Assembly: GCA_019058365.1 (NCBI GenBank)
Contig: JAHPZE010000011.1
Span: forward strand, 1 to 64,000
Origin: Promethearchaeota archaeon
GTDB lineage: Archaea > Asgardarchaeota > Lokiarchaeia > Sigyniarchaeales > SOKP01
Direction: 5' to 3'
Length of the DNA stretch: 64,000 nt
Shown: positions 12,392 to 35,312 of the stretch, piece by piece
How positions within the stretch are numbered: the first letter of the stretch is position 1
Layout: every line of letters starts with the position of its first letter
Made by a program: the position numbers and the translations under genes
Notes under the pieces: generated by a model
What the model was told of the DNA's origin: nothing
Databases searched by the model: none
The model's input: only the letters and a program-made list of their open reading frames with translations

Positions 12392-13138
12392 TTAACCGTT
12401 ATGAACATTGATATTTTTTTTATAATAACATAACCAAATAAAATTTTCAATTATTTCTTTTCCAATCGTGATAGTTTTATTAGCTATTCTCTCATCAAAT
12501 AAGCTTGGATGAAAATAATAAGGATTATGAGTTTCTGGATGAAATTGCAGCGCAAAAATTGGTCTGTCGAGATGTTTCATATACTGTACCATTTTATATC
12601 CTAAAGTTCTAGATGTACTCATGATATTGAACTTTTTTTGAATATTACAATCATTTGGAGATACAAAATCAAGGTGATGGACGTTAACTGGAATACTTTT
12701 TTGAGTAACTAATTCATCTGTTTCTTTAAGTAAAATAAATATTATCCTTCCCCCTAATCCAAAAAGCCTCATCCTGCTTATTTGAGCACCGTACGCATAA
12801 GCAACTAAATGAAATCCAAAGCATAATGCAAGGATTGGTATTTGATTTGTTTGTTGAATCAATAATAATTGAGGCTTAAACTTTCTTTTTAATCTCTCGT
12901 CGTAGTAAAAACTTGAAACATCTAATTCAGAGCCTGAGAGAATAATCCCATTATAATTTTCTGCCATTTCTGTTTTAAATTGAGTAAAATGAATTGTTTT
13001 TAACTCTACTTCTGCTATACAGTTTTTTATAATTGTTTCTATTCTTGTTATTCTATCCGTCGTTAAACCTCGAGAATAATTATCTATAAGCAGTATTTGT
13101 GTAATTTTTTCATTTTTAAAAGAATTTTCTTCACTCAT
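12392..13138 (-). CDS. Class I glutamine amidotransferase / gamma-glutamyl hydrolase-like protein
   Basis: GIILSGS, nucleophile elbow ALCFGFH, catalytic QFHPE. Confidence 0.88.
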   Translation of the reverse strand: MSEENSFKNEKITQILLIDNYSRGLTTDRITRIETIIKNCIAEVELKTIHFTQFKTEMAENYNGIILSGSELDVSSFYYDERLKRKFKPQLLLIQQTNQIPILALCFGFHLVAYAYGAQISRMRLFGLGGRIIFILLKETDELVTQKSIPVNVHHLDFVSPNDCNIQKKFNIMSTSRTLGYKMVQYMKHLDRPIFALQFHPETHNPYYFHPSLFDERIANKTITIGKEIIENFIWLCYYKKNINVHNG

Positions 13139-13155
13139 TAATAATCTCCAATGAA

Positions 13156-13521
13156 TTATGTGTAGTTTTTAATTAAAATCTCAGAGGGATAATATGTATA
13201 AGCATCAATATCACTATCATCTTCTAACTTTACTCTTACTAAAATTCTATGATATAATTTCCCTTCTCCTTCAATCATGTCGATTTGATTAAGGAGAGAT
13301 TTTCCAACACCATAGTATATCTCTCCATTAACACTAGAATTGTTATCATGAATGATAAATGGAAATCCCAAGGAATGTGGTTCCATCTTTCTATAATTTA
13401 ATAGTCTAGCTTTTTTATATTTTAATCCTCTAAGGATATAATTTCGGCTTTGTCCATGTTGTAAGGTACCATAGACGAAGAGTTTATCATAAATATAATT
13501 TTTATAATTGCCTTGTTCCAT
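13156..13521 (-). CDS. Gamma-glutamylcyclotransferase (AIG2-like/GGACT)
   Basis: LFVYGTL, V.GEIY, IDMIEG...LYHR motifs. Confidence 0.92.
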   Translation of the reverse strand: MEQGNYKNYIYDKLFVYGTLQHGQSRNYILRGLKYKKARLLNYRKMEPHSLGFPFIIHDNNSSVNGEIYYGVGKSLLNQIDMIEGEGKLYHRILVRVKLEDDSDIDAYTYYPSEILIKNYT

Positions 13522-13547
13522 TTTCTTAATAATTTTGTTAAATTTTA

Positions 13548-15011
13548 TTAGAATGAAACGTCACCAAACAATCTGTTTAATAATGAATCTGATTCAGATT
13601 GTCCTCTTAACACACGATCATTTTCTACTAATGGTATTTTAAGATTTTGCACTACAAGAGTATTAACAACTCGTATCCCCTTGAAATTAGTGACCATTCC
13701 ATCAACATCATCGTAAGAAAAACTATAGCTTGCTTCTAAATTACCTCGAACTTGAGTACCTGCAGTAATTTTATAACGATTTCCTCTCCGATCAGTGACA
13801 ATTCTTGGGTCTACTAATTCCATAACAACATAAGTTTTTCCTTGTTGTCTCAGTTTTTCAATTTTTCTTGTTTGATATTCTATATTTAGTTCTTTTTGAG
13901 GATAACCAATTATACGTTTTTTATCAGGTAAGTTTTTGATTTGAATGTCTAAATAATCTTGGTATATCTTAGTTTCGTTGATCCATCTTGTTGTGCTAGT
14001 TTCTAAGGATTCAATTACACCGTTTGGTCTCTTGAAAACAGCTTTAGTTCCATTTGCGATTGCATTTTCCACATTATTAGTATGATATGGGTCTTGTATA
14101 ATTTCTCCTGTTGATTGGAGATGTATAGCATGAAGTGTAGAAACACAACAAAGATAAGATAAATCAACTAAATCCTCAGTATTATATTGGACATCAACTA
14201 CACGGACTTCTATCCTATTTCTTGAGGGCAATTCATCGTTATCATCACTAATGTTAGTAAACGGACCTCTAGGGGTTATATCTACTAAACGATCTCCACG
14301 ATTATTAGTAATAACTTTTTTAGAGAACTCATCTTCTTCAAATCCTATTTTAAGTTTGTATCTCATCCGACCATAATATCGCATTGGAATCAAAGCTGGG
14401 CGATTTTCAGGTATCTGTATCAATGCAAATCCATTTGGTTTAAGGACAGTACTATTGGCACATCGATTACTAGCAATATTATTCCAATTTCCTCTATATA
14501 CATAAGAATTTGCTGAAATTCCAATTATTTCTGGAAGATAATCCCACAAATAATTATATACTATTTTCATTTCTTCAGGAGTCATTAGACCACCTTTTTT
14601 TTGGACAGAAACATTAATATGAGTTCCACAAATCGGATTTGGATCACTCTGCACTGGATGGAGACTTTGAGCAAGGATTTTAACTCCAAGTTGTTTTGCA
14701 GCTTCAGTTAATAATTTCCTTCCTTCTTTTACAGCCTGTTCCAGTGATGTAGGGGGTAGAGGTAGAGTAACATATTCAATTTGTGAAGGTGAAGGTTCGG
14801 CATCTAATCCCCGTATTCTGACTTGAAGTGAACTCAGAAAATTTTGATCTTTTTCAAGAATTTCAGCAGATTTTACCATTATATCATCTGCTACTTTTGC
14901 TAACCTTCCATTCTTATTAATAATAAGGAATTCCTCTTCGATACCACAAAGCACTTGGTAAGCCTTATAGATTTCTGAATCAAGTTCTTCTCTTTCTTCA
15001 TGAAATAGCAT
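13548..15011 (-). CDS. Glutamate-cysteine ligase family 2 (YbdK/GCS2-like carboxylate-amine ligase) with a C-terminal extension
   Basis: GIEEEF, QIEY, GTHINVS, SANS and RIEVR motifs of the GS-fold ligases; additional ~110-aa beta-rich C-terminus. Confidence 0.82.
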   Translation of the reverse strand: MLFHEEREELDSEIYKAYQVLCGIEEEFLIINKNGRLAKVADDIMVKSAEILEKDQNFLSSLQVRIRGLDAEPSPSQIEYVTLPLPPTSLEQAVKEGRKLLTEAAKQLGVKILAQSLHPVQSDPNPICGTHINVSVQKKGGLMTPEEMKIVYNYLWDYLPEIIGISANSYVYRGNWNNIASNRCANSTVLKPNGFALIQIPENRPALIPMRYYGRMRYKLKIGFEEDEFSKKVITNNRGDRLVDITPRGPFTNISDDNDELPSRNRIEVRVVDVQYNTEDLVDLSYLCCVSTLHAIHLQSTGEIIQDPYHTNNVENAIANGTKAVFKRPNGVIESLETSTTRWINETKIYQDYLDIQIKNLPDKKRIIGYPQKELNIEYQTRKIEKLRQQGKTYVVMELVDPRIVTDRRGNRYKITAGTQVRGNLEASYSFSYDDVDGMVTNFKGIRVVNTLVVQNLKIPLVENDRVLRGQSESDSLLNRLFGDVSF

Positions 15012-16463: not shown

Positions 16464-17600
16464 TTAAATCATCTCCAAAAACGCTTCTATCCTAGTACTA
16501 AGTTGTCCTCGTATTGCTCTTGAATAATCTCTTTCTAAGTTTAATACTTGAATCTCTTTTTCCTGTAATCTATTTTTCAAATGTGTTGACATAATAGAAA
16601 TATGATCACAGAACTTTATAATATGATTTATAATCCCTAATTTTCTACCTGTCTTCTTTTTATGGTCTAGATAAATTTTTTCAATTTGGAGAATCTTGTT
16701 TTCTAAAAAATTTGGTACAGAATGATCTCCAAAAATATTGTTTTTAAATCGCTGAACTAATAAATCATAGGGATTCTCCATTGAATCCAAGACGTTGTCT
16801 CCAAAAATTTGAGAATAATAATTATTTCCAATCCAAGTGTCTAAGTAGATAATATTTCCCCCTCCCTCTTCGATTAAATCAATCAGATGATCATCAATAA
16901 AGATAGAACCGCCTGTTAATAAAATATCTTTTAGACCATTAGATGATTGAATTTGATTATCTATGAATTCTTTAATATAAAATTCTAATTTAGGAAGAAA
17001 TGAAGGTCCATAGAGCATAGCATATTGAAGTACTTTTAGTTTTTCGGATCCTTTAATGTTTATAAGGCTAAACTCTAATAACTTTTTTTTGAAGGAATTA
17101 TACTTTCTAATACTCTTCTTAAATTCCTCATCTTGTACTTTATAACCATTAATATTTTCTAATTGTTTTTTTAATTCAAATAGTTCCAATTTGAAATATT
17201 TCAAACTATTCTCATTTTTAGTATATGAAGTATAAAAATTTAAACGAGAAATATTAAAATATTTAGATATTATTTCAGAGGCACAAATATCAGAAACGCA
17301 ATGATTGGAAACTATAAAATAATCAATTAGTTCTAAAAATTTATATTGGTTAGGCTTTAGCGAAAACAAACCAATACACGACTGGGCAAATGCACAAGTA
17401 GAAGGAGGTAAATAATCTACGCTAGCATCCATTAAGTCATCATTTCCCGCAAACATTAATCTTAAAGGAATAAAACCAGCAGCGTCTATTAATTCTTCAG
17501 GGATATTGTCGTGAGAGATAAATCCTACTACTTTTTTTCCCTCCTCTTTTTTTTCTCTTAAAAATGTTGCGTAATCTGATAATAGCTCTAAATTATCCAT
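16464..17600 (-). CDS. 2-hydroxyacyl-CoA dehydratase subunit (HgdA/B, FldB/C family)
   Basis: PEELIDAAGFIP, TCAFAQS, NHC, KFCD, GQLSTRIEAFLEMI. Confidence 0.9.
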   Translation of the reverse strand: MDNLELLSDYATFLREKKEEGKKVVGFISHDNIPEELIDAAGFIPLRLMFAGNDDLMDASVDYLPPSTCAFAQSCIGLFSLKPNQYKFLELIDYFIVSNHCVSDICASEIISKYFNISRLNFYTSYTKNENSLKYFKLELFELKKQLENINGYKVQDEEFKKSIRKYNSFKKKLLEFSLINIKGSEKLKVLQYAMLYGPSFLPKLEFYIKEFIDNQIQSSNGLKDILLTGGSIFIDDHLIDLIEEGGGNIIYLDTWIGNNYYSQIFGDNVLDSMENPYDLLVQRFKNNIFGDHSVPNFLENKILQIEKIYLDHKKKTGRKLGIINHIIKFCDHISIMSTHLKNRLQEKEIQVLNLERDYSRAIRGQLSTRIEAFLEMI

Positions 17601-17707: not shown

Positions 17708-18531
17708 TTAACTATTGTTCTGATCTTGTGCGATTAGAGCGGCTCCAATAGCACCCGTTAGCTGAGCGCTACTTTTTCCATTAAGCATGGGTATAACAAT
17801 CTCAAATCCCAATTCTTGCTCCAGGAAATTCTTAACTCCAACATTTTTAGCAACACCTCCACAGAAAACTAAGACAGGTGCAACACCTATTCGTTTAGCC
17901 ATTCCAGCAACCCTTCTTGCAATTGATTTATGAATTCCCGCAGCGATATCTTCTTTTTTCGTTCCTTTAGCAAAAAGAGATATAACTTCAGATTCAGCAA
18001 AAACTGTACATGTTGAACTAATTGATGCTGGGTTGTTAGATTTAAGTGCTAATTCTCCAATATCCTGGATAGGAACTTCAAGAGCTCCAGCCATCACTTC
18101 AATAAAGCGACCCGTTCCAGCAGCGCATTTTGACTATGCTAAAAAAAGTTTTTATGCATTTTATCATTCATTTGGAAATCAATAACGCTACCAGTTTTTT
18201 TAGAAATTACAATCGCCTTACTATCTTGTCCCCCAATATCTATAACAGAATGGGCTTCTGGAAAGAAGTATTGTACTCCTCGAGCATGTGCTGTGATCTC
18301 TGTAATGCGATCATCAGCAAACGATACAGTATTCCTCCCGTATCCAGTACTCATAACAAAAACATCACTTTTTTTCAGTTTATGTTGTTCTAAAATATCA
18401 TTGAATAAATTACTACCTACACGTTTAAAATCAAATGTAGACCGTCCAACCCGATAGTCAACGATATTCTTATCATCGAGTAACACTACTTTTGTTTCTA
18501 ATGATCCAATGTCAACTCCACATGTTTTCAA
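17708..18531 (-). CDS. hgdC: 2-hydroxyacyl-CoA dehydratase activator (HgdC/FldI-type ASKHA ATPase, [4Fe-4S]), interrupted by a 32-nt insert; 263 aa if spliced
   Basis: 5' half GVDIGS, STGYGR, ITEITAHARG, IDIGGQDSK, FQMNDK; 3' half CAAGTGRFIE, ISSTCTVFAESEVIS, GGVAKN, GAIGAAL. Removing 18129..18160 joins them in frame (792 nt). The ORF track shows two pieces. Confidence 0.9.
18129..18160 (-). other. Candidate bulge-helix-bulge-type mRNA intron (32 nt)
   Basis: Pre-mRNA UGAU-AA|A-AUGCAUAAAAACUUUUUUUAGCAU-A-GUCA-AA|A-UGC: 4-bp central helix UGAU/GUCA, two AAA bulges and an internal hairpin. Cutting after the second bulge nucleotide restores GAU AAA UGC (D-K-C). Confidence 0.65.
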
Positions 18532-32638: not shown

Positions 32639-34459
32639 TTGATGACATTAGAGGATTCTTCAAAATTTGGTGTAATTACAGCAATTAAAGGTTCATTAAT
32701 TGAAGTAAAAGGATTAGAAGATAATATAAAACTTCATGATTTAATTAAAATTACTAAGTATAATATACTAAGTGAAGTTATTCAAATATATTCTAATTAC
32801 ATTGTTGCTCAATGTTATGACAATACGCATAAATTAAAACTAAATGATAAAGTTATTAATCTTCAGAGACCATTATCCATGGAGTTAGGTCCTGGATTAA
32901 TGGCAAATGTTTTTGATGGGATCCAAAGACCTTTAGATACGATTTTTCAACATTTCAAAGAAGGACAATTAGAGAGGGGAATTGAATTCTCACCATTATC
33001 ACAAACAAAAAAATGGCATTTTATTCCATTAAGAAAGCCAGGTGAAGATGTAAGCAGTGGAGATATTATTGGAACTGTTCAAGAAACTCAAATTATTAAT
33101 CACAAGATAATGATACCACCAGGAATTTTTGGAAAATTATCTTTTATCGTAGAAGAAGGAGATTACTCTATCATTGATGAAATTTATTGCGTAAAAGAAA
33201 ATGATGAAGAAAAATCATATTCTTTAATGCAAAAGTGGGCAATTACTAAAAGGAGGCCCTTCAGTGAGAGAATTAAACCTTATGAACCTCTATTAACGGG
33301 AACACGTATAATTGATTTGCTATTTCCAATAGCAAAAGGAGGAACTTTAGCTATTCCTGGGGGATTTGGAACTGGAAAAACAGTTATTTTACAAACAATT
33401 GCTAAATTTTGTAATGCGGACATCATCGTATATATCGGTTGTGGCGAGCCTGGAAACGAAATTGCTAATCTTTTAAAACAATTCAAAGAAACTTATGATG
33501 CTAAAAATAGAAGACCATTGTTAGAACGCACAATTATTATTGCCAATACTTCAAATATGCCTGTTTCTGCTCGTGATGCAAGTCTTTTTTCAGGAGTAAC
33601 TATTGCAGAGTATTATAGAGATATGGGATATGATGTTGCAGTTCTCGCGGATAGTACCTCAAGATGGGCTGAATCCTTAAGAGAAATCTCCGGATTATTA
33701 GAAGAAATGCCTGCCGAACAAGGATATCCTGCATATTTACCAACAAGACTTTCGAGTTTTTACGAACGAGCTGGAGTTATTAAAACTTTAGGACAAGATC
33801 ATTCTGGAAAAGGAAATATTGGTTCTATAACAATTATAGGATCAATATCACCCCCCGCGGGAGATTTTAATGAACCAGTTACTACAGCTACTATACGGGT
33901 TGTACAAGCATTATTAGCATTAGATAATACTCTATCGTATCAAAAACAATACCCTGCTATTAATTGGTTGAAATCTTATTCAAATTATCCTGATTACATC
34001 TCAGAATGGTGGATCAATACCGATATTTATTGGTCAGAGATAGATATTGATTGGTTAGAATGTCGAAGACAAGTAGATGAAATATTATCAAAAGAAAATG
34101 ATTTAAAATTTATAATTCAATTGATTGGAAAAAAAAATTTGCCAGATGATCAAAAACTTGATCTTTTTATGGCAAAATTAATTCAAAATAGCTTGTTAAT
34201 CCAAAATGCATTTGTAGAAATTGACAATTTTACTGAATATAAAAAATTAATAGGATTAATTAAGATAATTCTTTTATTTTTCAAAGAAGGTAAAATTCTG
34301 TTAAAAAAAGGTTTTAAATTTAATGAGATTAAAGAAGAGGAAGTCTTGAATAGTATTATGAGACTCACACATTCTGTACCAAATGAAGATTTTAACCAAA
34401 TTGAACAATTTAAAAATAGGATGCTAAGTGATTTAATAAAATTGGTTTTTGTAAAATAA
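32639..34459 (+). CDS. atpA: Second A/V-ATPase subunit A paralog with an altered catalytic motif
   Basis: Full-length homolog of 25960..27810; P-loop GGFGTGKT intact but GCGEPGNE replaces GCGERGNE. Confidence 0.93.
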   Translation: MMTLEDSSKFGVITAIKGSLIEVKGLEDNIKLHDLIKITKYNILSEVIQIYSNYIVAQCYDNTHKLKLNDKVINLQRPLSMELGPGLMANVFDGIQRPLDTIFQHFKEGQLERGIEFSPLSQTKKWHFIPLRKPGEDVSSGDIIGTVQETQIINHKIMIPPGIFGKLSFIVEEGDYSIIDEIYCVKENDEEKSYSLMQKWAITKRRPFSERIKPYEPLLTGTRIIDLLFPIAKGGTLAIPGGFGTGKTVILQTIAKFCNADIIVYIGCGEPGNEIANLLKQFKETYDAKNRRPLLERTIIIANTSNMPVSARDASLFSGVTIAEYYRDMGYDVAVLADSTSRWAESLREISGLLEEMPAEQGYPAYLPTRLSSFYERAGVIKTLGQDHSGKGNIGSITIIGSISPPAGDFNEPVTTATIRVVQALLALDNTLSYQKQYPAINWLKSYSNYPDYISEWWINTDIYWSEIDIDWLECRRQVDEILSKENDLKFIIQLIGKKNLPDDQKLDLFMAKLIQNSLLIQNAFVEIDNFTEYKKLIGLIKIILLFFKEGKILLKKGFKFNEIKEEEVLNSIMRLTHSVPNEDFNQIEQFKNRMLSDLIKLVFVK

Positions 34460-34715: not shown

Positions 34716-35312
34716 TTATGGTTTAAACCACTCAAAGAAATAATAGCTACATGTAAGAGGATTAGCTATTACAAATTTTTTTCTAACAGATGTAGCTAAG
34801 CGACCAGCTCTTACCATATCAATAGCAGTAATTTCAGAATCATGGGGTAAGACATGAACCATGAAAAGGGAATGTTCAAGGCCAGGTCCTTTTTTATATA
34901 CTACAAAATCAGCCCCAAATTTAAGTCCAGGTCTAGGTATGTATCCTTTTTCTCTTAAATCTTTATAAATTACATATTTTTCTTTAAATTTATGATGAAT
35001 CTTAATCGCAATTTCATAAAATGTCTCGGAATTTAAGAATCTTTTATCTTTTATATCATAAATAGTGATTCCATCCTTTTCCAATAAATAATATGCTTCT
35101 ATTAATGATAATTCGCTTGGTTTAGAAAAATATTCTAATCTAGGCTTACTTATTCCTAATGGGGAGCCAAAAAATCCTTTCTTTACATATAAATATGAAG
35201 CATACAAGGGATTAAAAACAACTACTCTTGAATTGACAAATTTAGTAGGGATTTTATCTGGTACTTCGATATCATCAAGAGAGATTTCATCATCCTTTAC
35301 TTGGTTCATCAT
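34716..35312 (-). CDS. endA: tRNA-splicing endonuclease catalytic subunit
   Basis: LSLIEAYYL, YKDLREKGY, GLKFGADFVVY, PG..HS, RLATSVRKK (Tyr/His/Lys triad); contains the GFFGSPLGISKP loop. Confidence 0.95.
   Translation of the reverse strand: MMNQVKDDEISLDDIEVPDKIPTKFVNSRVVVFNPLYASYLYVKKGFFGSPLGISKPRLEYFSKPSELSLIEAYYLLEKDGITIYDIKDKRFLNSETFYEIAIKIHHKFKEKYVIYKDLREKGYIPRPGLKFGADFVVYKKGPGLEHSLFMVHVLPHDSEITAIDMVRAGRLATSVRKKFVIANPLTCSYYFFEWFKP

What the first reader, a model, noticed from the sequence alone, without database searches (positions are those of the whole stretch)
18129..18160. Candidate bulge-helix-bulge intron inside a protein-coding gene (dehydratase activator hgdC)
Seen: the activator ORF is broken exactly at the conserved MNDK/CAAGTG motif by a 32-nt insert containing an in-frame TAG. 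On the mRNA strand it folds as a 4-bp helix UGAU/GUCA, each strand followed by AAA, closed inside by the hairpin AUGC(A)UAAAAA-CUU-UUUUUAGCAU. Cutting after the second nucleotide of each bulge removes exactly 32 nt and gives GAU AAA UGC, an uninterrupted 263-aa protein. Both halves keep all motifs and both dehydratase subunits are intact, so this does not look like decay. Known: EndA cuts BHB motifs at that position; archaeal mRNA introns of this kind are known mainly from crenarchaeal cbf5; the Cys restored is a [4Fe-4S] ligand. Inference: EndA-dependent mRNA splicing in an Asgard metabolic gene, possibly a switch on amino-acid fermentation. Caveats: one extra A makes the inner bulge a 3x1 loop (relaxed motif) and the outer helix is weak.
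Basis: partly seen in the sequence, partly recalled or inferred. Interest (0 to 1): 0.93.

Follow-up and report, generated by a model that had tools for sequence, protein, structure and literature searches.

The report
tRNA-type intron in Asgard activase gene
An enzyme-activator gene of a Loki-type Asgard archaeon is split by a 32-base hairpin of the kind normally cut out of tRNAs, and comparison with relatives shows that the gene is still in use and that several other genes of this genome, two of them essential, are split the same way, which points to routine tRNA-style splicing of messenger RNA in the closest prokaryotic relatives of eukaryotes.

Summary
Confirmed. The 32-nt insert (18160-18129, minus strand) puts stops in both exon frames of an acyl-CoA dehydratase activase gene. 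Cutting after the second base of each bulge restores a 263-aa protein; the first whole codon of exon 2 aligns with Cys127 of HgdC (1HUX). I found 23 different inserts (27-38 nt, all three frame classes) at this exact site in Loki-type genomes. They keep the 4-bp exon-intron helix and a covarying inner hairpin, and their exons are intact (dN/dS 0.05). A motif-free comparison found 8 frame-breaking inserts in this genome, 7 of them 30-32-nt bulge-helix-bulge (BHB) hairpins, against 0 of 17 ordinary indels. The single-copy EF-1alpha and RNA polymerase A' genes are split this way too. Both EndA subunits (catalytic triad, relaxed-specificity loop lysine) and RtcB are present. Best reading: an EndA/RtcB-spliced mRNA intron with a relaxed motif (about 0.9). 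Splicing is inferred; no RNA holder was listed. The 'fermentation switch' is unsupported: most orthologues lack the intron and intact paralogues exist. Papers I could search show coding-sequence BHB splicing only for cbf5. This scan noted such introns before, on other pieces of this genome and at this site in another genome.

The parts
18129..18160 (-). 32-nt intron (EndA register: cut after the 2nd base of each bulge)
   Evidence: 22 further different inserts at the same site in relatives
18161..18531 (-). exon 1 of the activase gene (TTG start, codons 1-124 plus AA of Lys125)
   Evidence: PF01869 positions 2-137, TIGR00241 positions 2-121
17708..18128 (-). exon 2 (last base of Lys125, then Cys126 to the stop)
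   Evidence: TIGR00241 positions 122-248; aligns to 1HUX from residue 127
18163..18166 (-). exon strand of the 4-bp central helix (UGAU)
   Evidence: 98.8% of cells paired in 20 introns
18160..18162 (-). 5' splice-site bulge AAA (a 3x1 loop with A18135); predicted cut between 18161 and 18160
   Evidence: same 3x1 geometry in 5 of 20 inserts and in the closest relatives L133/L136
18136..18159 (-). intron hairpin (10 bp, one bulged A, 3-nt loop)
   Evidence: all 8 tested inner pairs show changes on both sides across orthologues
18131..18134 (-). intron strand of the central helix (GUCA)
   Evidence: kept in 19 of 20 inserts
18128..18130 (-). 3' splice-site bulge AAA; predicted cut between 18129 and 18128
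   Evidence: in L024 only this register restores Lys
18177..18194 (-). exon-1 stretch that can pair with exon 2 (18125-18117, a distant outer helix) and, in a competing fold, with the intron's GUCA
   Evidence: predicted only; competing fold 0.9-1.8 kcal/mol more stable than the forced BHB
16464..17600 (-). intact HGD-D family subunit (378 aa), next gene downstream
   Evidence: PF06050; same order in L130-L132
15102..16460 (-). intact HGD-D family subunit (452 aa)
   Evidence: PF06050
34716..35312 (-). catalytic EndA subunit with Tyr/His/Lys triad and the L1 (crenarchaeal-type) loop lysine
   Evidence: K44 role from PMC5829648

Best explanation
The insert is a real tRNA-type (BHB) intron in the activase mRNA. 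The transcript folds so that exon UGAU pairs with intron GUCA on top of the intron hairpin. The two-subunit splicing endonuclease EndA cuts after the second base of each AAA, RtcB joins the exons, and the spliced message encodes the 263-aa ATP-dependent [4Fe-4S] activator of the neighbouring HGD-D enzyme. The motif is relaxed (a 3x1 loop at the 5' site, no adjacent outer helix at the 3' site), which fits an EndA with the L1 loop. It is one of at least eight such introns in this genome and is probably a tolerated passenger, lost or gained repeatedly, rather than a pathway switch. Shown: insert, stops, restored frame, structure kept across relatives, selection on the exons, presence of the enzymes. 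Inferred: cleavage, ligation, the protein product.
For: 23 different inserts at this exact site, 27-38 nt. Of the first 20, 9 keep the frame, 9 shift it by 2 and 2 by 1; every unspliced form stops within 1-9 codons; exons are intact. Central helix 4/4 in 19 of 20; inner stem with 33 cells changed on both sides against 11.6 in shuffles (0 of 500 reach it) and 85% of cells paired against 28-50% in slid registers; 16 of 20 pass a strict motif test against 0.9% of shuffled inserts. In L024 only the EndA register restores the Lys codon. Nine chance matches of the search pattern in other DNA never have the 4/4 helix. dN/dS 0.052 between this gene and the intron-bearing orthologue L002, in both exons; 34 silent against 7 replacement changes on this genome's own branch. 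Motif-free census: 7 of 8 frame-breaking inserts are BHB hairpins, 0 of 17 in-frame indels, Fisher p = 1.7e-5. Single-copy EF-1alpha (unspliced product 22 aa) and Rpo1N are split by BHB inserts with a 4/4 central helix. Two EndA paralogues and RtcB are present.
Against: No RNA or protein evidence for this locus. This genome's own hairpin is weak (z = -1.8) and both splice sites are non-canonical. With 50 nt of flank the predicted probability of the central helix falls to 0.09 because a competing fold captures GUCA. RNAalifold found no consensus on the plain MAFFT alignment. The central helix shows almost no covariation because its exon strand is fixed by the protein. Intact paralogues could cover a poorly spliced gene.
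Confidence: 0.9

Rival explanations
1. Ribosome hopping (T4 gene 60 or mitochondrial byp type): the ribosome takes off at AAA (Lys125) and lands on the matching AAA 32 nt downstream, so no RNA is cut.
For: This locus has identical take-off and landing codons around a hairpin; 16 of 20 inserts have a same-residue pair.
Against: Four of 20 inserts have no matched pair, and neither do the EF-1alpha, Rpo1N, mevalonate kinase, JAMM and AMP phosphorylase inserts. Hopping does not explain why each insert ends in the complement of its own exon's four bases. The stop lies 1-9 codons away rather than directly after the take-off codon (mechanism as described in PMC8211752).
Confidence: 0.03
2. A dead or dying gene: the intron family is real, but in this strain the motif has decayed (3x1 loop, bulged A) and paralogues do the work.
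For: Weak hairpin and competing fold; uninterrupted activase paralogues at 32-42% identity.
Against: 34 silent against 7 replacement changes on this genome's branch, all motifs intact; the 3x1 loop is shared with relatives at 87-89% coding identity and with four other inserts; both partner genes are intact. A very recent loss of splicing would not yet show.
Confidence: 0.04
3. A regulated intron: splicing efficiency, set by the competing fold or by EndA level, switches the radical dehydratase pathway on and off (the first reader's suggestion; compatible with splicing, not an alternative to it).
For: The intron sits directly before the cluster-binding Cys, so unspliced RNA gives no active protein; a competing fold of similar energy exists; negative regulation was proposed for the cbf5 intron (PMC2738675).
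Against: Absent from 26 of 30 best-matching loci of the genus and patchy on the tree; the same kind of intron sits in housekeeping genes; the predicted strength of the BHB fold in context varies widely among relatives.
Confidence: 0.1
4. Transposon or MITE footprint, or assembly error.
For: A 7-base direct repeat flanks the insert in this genome.
Against: No second copy in the genome at up to 6 mismatches; the repeat is not kept in relatives; an independently assembled contig is identical; inserts recur at one site in many genomes.
Confidence: 0.01
5. Programmed frameshift, stop read-through, or two separately translated halves.
For: An A/U-run stretch lies in the insert, and a GTG/ATG start follows at 18097.
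Against: Both exon frames carry a TAG inside the insert; inserts come in all three length classes; the 129-aa downstream ORF lacks Cys126 and the GTGR motif.
Confidence: 0.01

Closest known systems
cbf5 pre-mRNA intron of Crenarchaeota (Sulfolobales, Desulfurococcales; PMC2738675, reviewed in PMC10485636)
   Same: Short intron in a coding sequence, at a conserved functional motif; relaxed BHB; cut between the 2nd and 3rd bulge base; host has a two-subunit EndA; lost secondarily in some lineages.
   Different: Different phylum and gene; one of at least eight such introns in one genome, including essential genes; presence varies between species of one genus; splicing here is not yet shown by experiment.
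HVO_1309 BHB intron of Haloferax volcanii (PMC7714728)
   Same: EndA substrate in an mRNA.
   Different: That intron is in the 5' UTR and does not break a reading frame; the enzyme is the homodimeric type.
Asgard tRNA introns at non-canonical positions (bioRxiv 10.64898/2026.10.13.758758)
   Same: BHB boundaries, repeated gains or losses at the same positions, unknown route of arrival, two EndA paralogues.
   Different: That work covers tRNA genes only; the word mRNA does not occur in its main text.
IRE1-spliced XBP1/HAC1 introns of eukaryotes (PMC13149111)
   Same: Protein endonuclease plus tRNA-type ligase remove a frame-changing intron from an mRNA without a spliceosome.
   Different: Different nuclease and substrate shape (two stem-loops); regulated by stress. 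An analogy only.
HgdC/HadI-type activases (1HUX, 4EHT; PF01869, TIGR00241)
   Same: The spliced product matches the family over its whole length; Cys126 aligns with Cys127 of 1HUX.
   Different: Partner subunits stay below the cut-offs of the named NCBIfam equivalogs; substrate unknown.

Membership tests
Archaeal BHB (EndA-spliced) intron | 4-bp central helix between exon and intron | tested here: met
   UGAU/GUCA; 19 of 20 inserts 4/4
Archaeal BHB (EndA-spliced) intron | 3-nt bulge at the 5' site closed by the intron helix (HBh') | tested here: inconclusive
   3x1 loop in this genome (relaxed); canonical in 15 of 20 orthologous inserts
Archaeal BHB (EndA-spliced) intron | 3-nt bulge at the 3' site closed by an exon-exon helix (strict hBHBh') | tested here: not met
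   No adjacent outer helix; only a distant 9-bp exon-exon helix is predicted. This excludes the strict class, not the relaxed classes that two-subunit EndA cleaves (PMC5829648, PMC2738675).
Archaeal BHB (EndA-spliced) intron | Cut after the 2nd base of each bulge restores the host sequence | tested here: met
   the only register that works for L024; also unique for Rpo1N
Archaeal BHB (EndA-spliced) intron | Host encodes EndA able to take relaxed motifs, and an RNA ligase | tested here: met
   Two PF01974 genes, RtcB; catalytic subunit closest to Aeropyrum EndA with the lysine aligned to K44. Activity not tested.
Archaeal BHB (EndA-spliced) intron | Cleavage by EndA and ligated exons or circular intron in RNA | not testable with these tools
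   No RNA run holding the stretch was listed
Translational bypass element (gene 60 / byp) | Matched take-off and landing codons in all members | tested here: not met
   4 of 20 inserts and 5 of 6 other genes tested lack a match
MITE / insertion sequence | Multiple copies with target-site duplication | tested here: not met
   single copy; repeat not conserved
Group I / group II intron | Ribozyme core of hundreds of bases | tested here: not met
   32 nt; no Rfam match near a gathering score
Acyl-CoA dehydratase activase (TIGR00241 / PF01869) | ASKHA ATPase motifs and two cluster-binding Cys | tested here: met
   Halves cover profile positions 2-121 and 122-248; motifs present in the spliced product

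The most novel reading that the evidence does not exclude
One family of Loki-type Asgard archaea carries a genome-wide class of short EndA/RtcB-spliced mRNA introns (at least eight in this genome, including EF-1alpha and the largest RNA polymerase subunit), which are precisely lost or regained at the same sites between close species. mRNA splicing would then be routine and essential in a sister group of eukaryotes, with a route from RNA back to DNA still to be found.
Probability: 0.8. Interest if true: 0.9.

Novelty: new variant of a known kind. Interest (0 to 1): 0.8.

Why it matters
In the papers I could search, endonuclease splicing of an archaeal coding sequence is confirmed only for cbf5, plus one 5' UTR intron in Haloferax; introns in other protein genes had only been predicted (PMC2738675, PMC7714728, PMC10485636). 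Many such introns in unrelated and essential genes of an Asgard lineage would show that protein-catalysed mRNA splicing at genome scale exists in prokaryotes closest to eukaryotes. It bears on where frame-breaking introns can persist without a spliceosome or nucleus and offers an analogue of IRE1/RtcB splicing. It also means that Asgard annotations contain split genes that look like pseudogenes (the protein collection holds many 126-128-aa halves). This site is a good test case: 23 natural variants, canonical and relaxed, define what the Asgard EndA must accept.

Tried and rejected
No RNA holder listed for the stretch; this says nothing about expression. Logan contigs of three further runs covered the locus only in pieces or through relatives. 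An ab initio scan for BHB plus restored frame gave too many false positives (179 clusters at 42 nt or less) and missed EF-1alpha and Rpo1N, so it was dropped for a motif-free comparison. RNAalifold gave no consensus on the sequence-only alignment because stems shift register. Rfam: nothing near threshold. Two pattern scans and one note look-up failed on syntax and were resent corrected. Rejected: MITE, assembly error, frameshift or read-through, separate halves, ribosome hopping (see rivals). The gene trees are poorly resolved and unrooted, so gain and loss cannot be told apart. Literature searches for Asgard mRNA introns found none; subscription journals are mostly missing from the library.

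Full report
Observation. The window is the first 64 kb of contig C26 of a 4.74-Mb, roughly 30% GC genome. Records that carry the same kind of insert are titled Promethearchaeota, so the host is a Loki-type Asgard archaeon (inference from close relatives). On the minus strand an ORF starting at TTG 18531 stops at 18139 and a second piece runs to 17708. They match consecutive halves of the activase family (PF01869 2-137 and 147-271; TIGR00241 2-121 and 122-248). Removing 18160-18129 gives a 263-aa open frame with MNDK-CAAGTG; three neighbouring registers give the same protein. The first whole codon of exon 2 aligns with Cys127 of the Acidaminococcus activator 1HUX, one of its two cluster ligands (own knowledge). 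Both frames have a TAG inside the insert, so neither a frameshift nor a separate start can supply this Cys. An independently assembled contig at depth 81 is identical over the stretch (may be the source sample). The insert has no second copy in the genome at up to six mismatches.

Structure. The region folds as described: UGAU/GUCA, AAA, a 10-bp hairpin with a bulged A, an extra A, and a second AAA. Alone this is weak: z = -1.8. In longer context a competing fold pairs GUCA with an upstream exon stretch and is 0.9-1.8 kcal/mol more stable than the forced BHB; the forced BHB is closed by a distant exon-exon helix, not an adjacent one. The motif is therefore relaxed at both sites.

Relatives decide the case. 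Of the 30 best-matching loci in the genus, 4 have an insert at exactly this site and 26 have none. Pattern scans of GTDB genomes and metagenomes gave 31 matches. Twenty-two are low-GC loci with the same anatomy; nine are chance matches or small duplications in other DNA and never show the 4/4 helix. With the genus loci this gives 20 distinct inserts of 27-38 nt; the protein cluster of exon 1 led to three more. Among the 20, 9 keep the frame, 9 shift it by two and 2 by one; each unspliced form stops within 1-9 codons and each spliced form is open. The central helix is complete in 19 of 20. On an alignment not fitted to the structure, all 8 inner pairs tested show changes on both sides (33 cells against 11.6 shuffled; 0 of 500 shuffles), and 85% of cells pair against 28-50% in slid registers (kin are not independent). 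Fifteen of 20 have a canonical 5' bulge and five have the 3x1 loop; the closest relatives of this insert share the 3x1 loop, so it is not decay peculiar to this strain. In L024 the bulges are AAC and AUA, and only the EndA register restores lysine. All 20 intron-bearing genes keep U at the first helix position, a silent site that varies in 6 of 27 intron-free genes (p = 0.03, weak).

The gene is in use. dN/dS is 0.052 against the intron-bearing orthologue L002 (0.056 and 0.045 in the two exons) and similar against intron-free orthologues. This genome's own branch has 34 silent and 7 replacement changes. No intron-bearing exon has a stop. The two downstream HGD-D genes are intact and in the same order in intron-free relatives.

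It is not alone. Notes of this scan pointed to other split genes in this genome, which I tested. EF-1alpha has one copy over the family cut-off and is broken in its P-loop by a 32-nt insert with a canonical BHB; unspliced it gives 22 residues. The same intron position is filled in 3 of 107 genomes of the family that match the pattern. Rpo1N has one copy, broken by a 30-nt BHB insert with a stop. For a test free of the motif I aligned ORFs from 1.12 Mb of a relative (G023) to this genome. Of 25 insertions, 8 break the frame; 7 of these are 30-32-nt BHB hairpins (this gene, Rpo1N, Alba, mevalonate kinase, a JAMM protein, an LsrF-type aldolase, AMP phosphorylase; names other than Rpo1N rest on my reading of the motifs), and the eighth is 14 nt at an ORF edge. 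None of the 17 in-frame indels has the motif (p = 1.7e-5). G023 has two such inserts of its own. As the sample covers about half of an incomplete relative, the genome probably holds 15-30 introns (rough inference).

Machinery. Two EndA-family genes and one RtcB are present. The catalytic subunit lies in this window (34716-35312); its best solved relatives are the Aeropyrum catalytic subunit, with the Tyr/His/Lys triad and the lysine that aligns with K44. That loop and lysine give broad specificity and were reported throughout Asgard (PMC5829648).

Mechanism. Shown: insert, stops, restored frame, conserved structure, purifying selection, enzymes. Inferred: EndA cuts at 18161/18160 and 18129/18128, RtcB ligates, and the full activase is made. 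Ribosome hopping is the one serious alternative, since this locus has AAA at both ends, but 4 of 20 variants and 5 of 6 other genes lack matched codons. Intron-bearing genes are scattered on the tree (about 10 changes among 46 proteins) and are rejected as one clade (AU p = 0.007). The shared GUCA-AA end suggests one old insertion with repeated exact loss, but repeated gain is not excluded. In the order-wide scan, listed inserts were confined to two genera of the own family and absent from the ten listed rows of family f2; 43 rows were not shown. This patchiness, the intact paralogues and the spread over housekeeping genes argue against a dedicated fermentation switch.

Known and new. BHB splicing of a coding sequence is documented for cbf5 (PMC2738675), and of a 5' UTR for HVO_1309 (PMC7714728); a 2023 review counts two archaeal genes (PMC10485636), and introns in other genes were predicted but unconfirmed. 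A 2026 preprint covers Asgard tRNA introns only. I found no paper on Asgard mRNA introns. It works like the cbf5 intron and meets the comparative criteria of a relaxed BHB intron; the strict class is not met and cleavage is untested. The single intron is a new member; the many-gene system is a new variant. This scan noted the same phenomenon earlier, including at this site in another genome and with RNA support claimed for other genes; I did not check those RNA claims and do not count them as support. Score 0.8.

Noticed in passing
window 34716-35312 (-); L063 (contig C12 about 101.7 kb): Catalytic EndA subunit 16 kb from the intron, with the L1 loop lysine; a second EndA paralogue on C12 lacks the catalytic His/Lys pattern and is probably the structural subunit.
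   Followed up: partly
L065 (C52:30988-31019, +): 32-nt canonical BHB insert in the P-loop of the single EF-1alpha gene; also in G001 and G005 with different inner sequence.
   Followed up: yes
L069 (C52:2085-2114, +): 30-nt BHB insert with a stop in the single Rpo1N gene.
   Followed up: yes
G000 C13:17126 (+), C36:26637 (-), C7:91535 (+), C9:585 (-), C9:32935 (+): 30-32-nt frame-breaking BHB inserts in Alba, mevalonate kinase, a JAMM/MPN protein, an LsrF-type aldolase and AMP phosphorylase genes; all absent from G023.
   Followed up: partly
L081:12034 (-) and L082:15883 (-) (G023): G023 has its own 31-nt and 30-nt BHB-like inserts in adenylosuccinate synthetase and a metal-dependent hydrolase, absent from this genome.
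   Followed up: partly
window 12392-15011 (-): GCS2-like ligase, gamma-glutamylcyclotransferase and class I amidotransferase follow the dehydratase genes on the same strand, possibly one operon.
   Followed up: no
window 32639-34459 (+): An ATPase A-subunit-like gene reads GEPGNE where the family has GERGNE.
   Followed up: no
   Followed up: no
whole genome: ARAGORN finds only 30 tRNA genes, many with odd introns, in a genome rated 100% complete, suggesting heavily interrupted tRNA genes.
   Followed up: no
L036: The record titled Ca. Thorarchaeota carries the same insert as genome G101 of the window's genus, so the title probably does not extend the intron to Thorarchaeia.
   Followed up: partly
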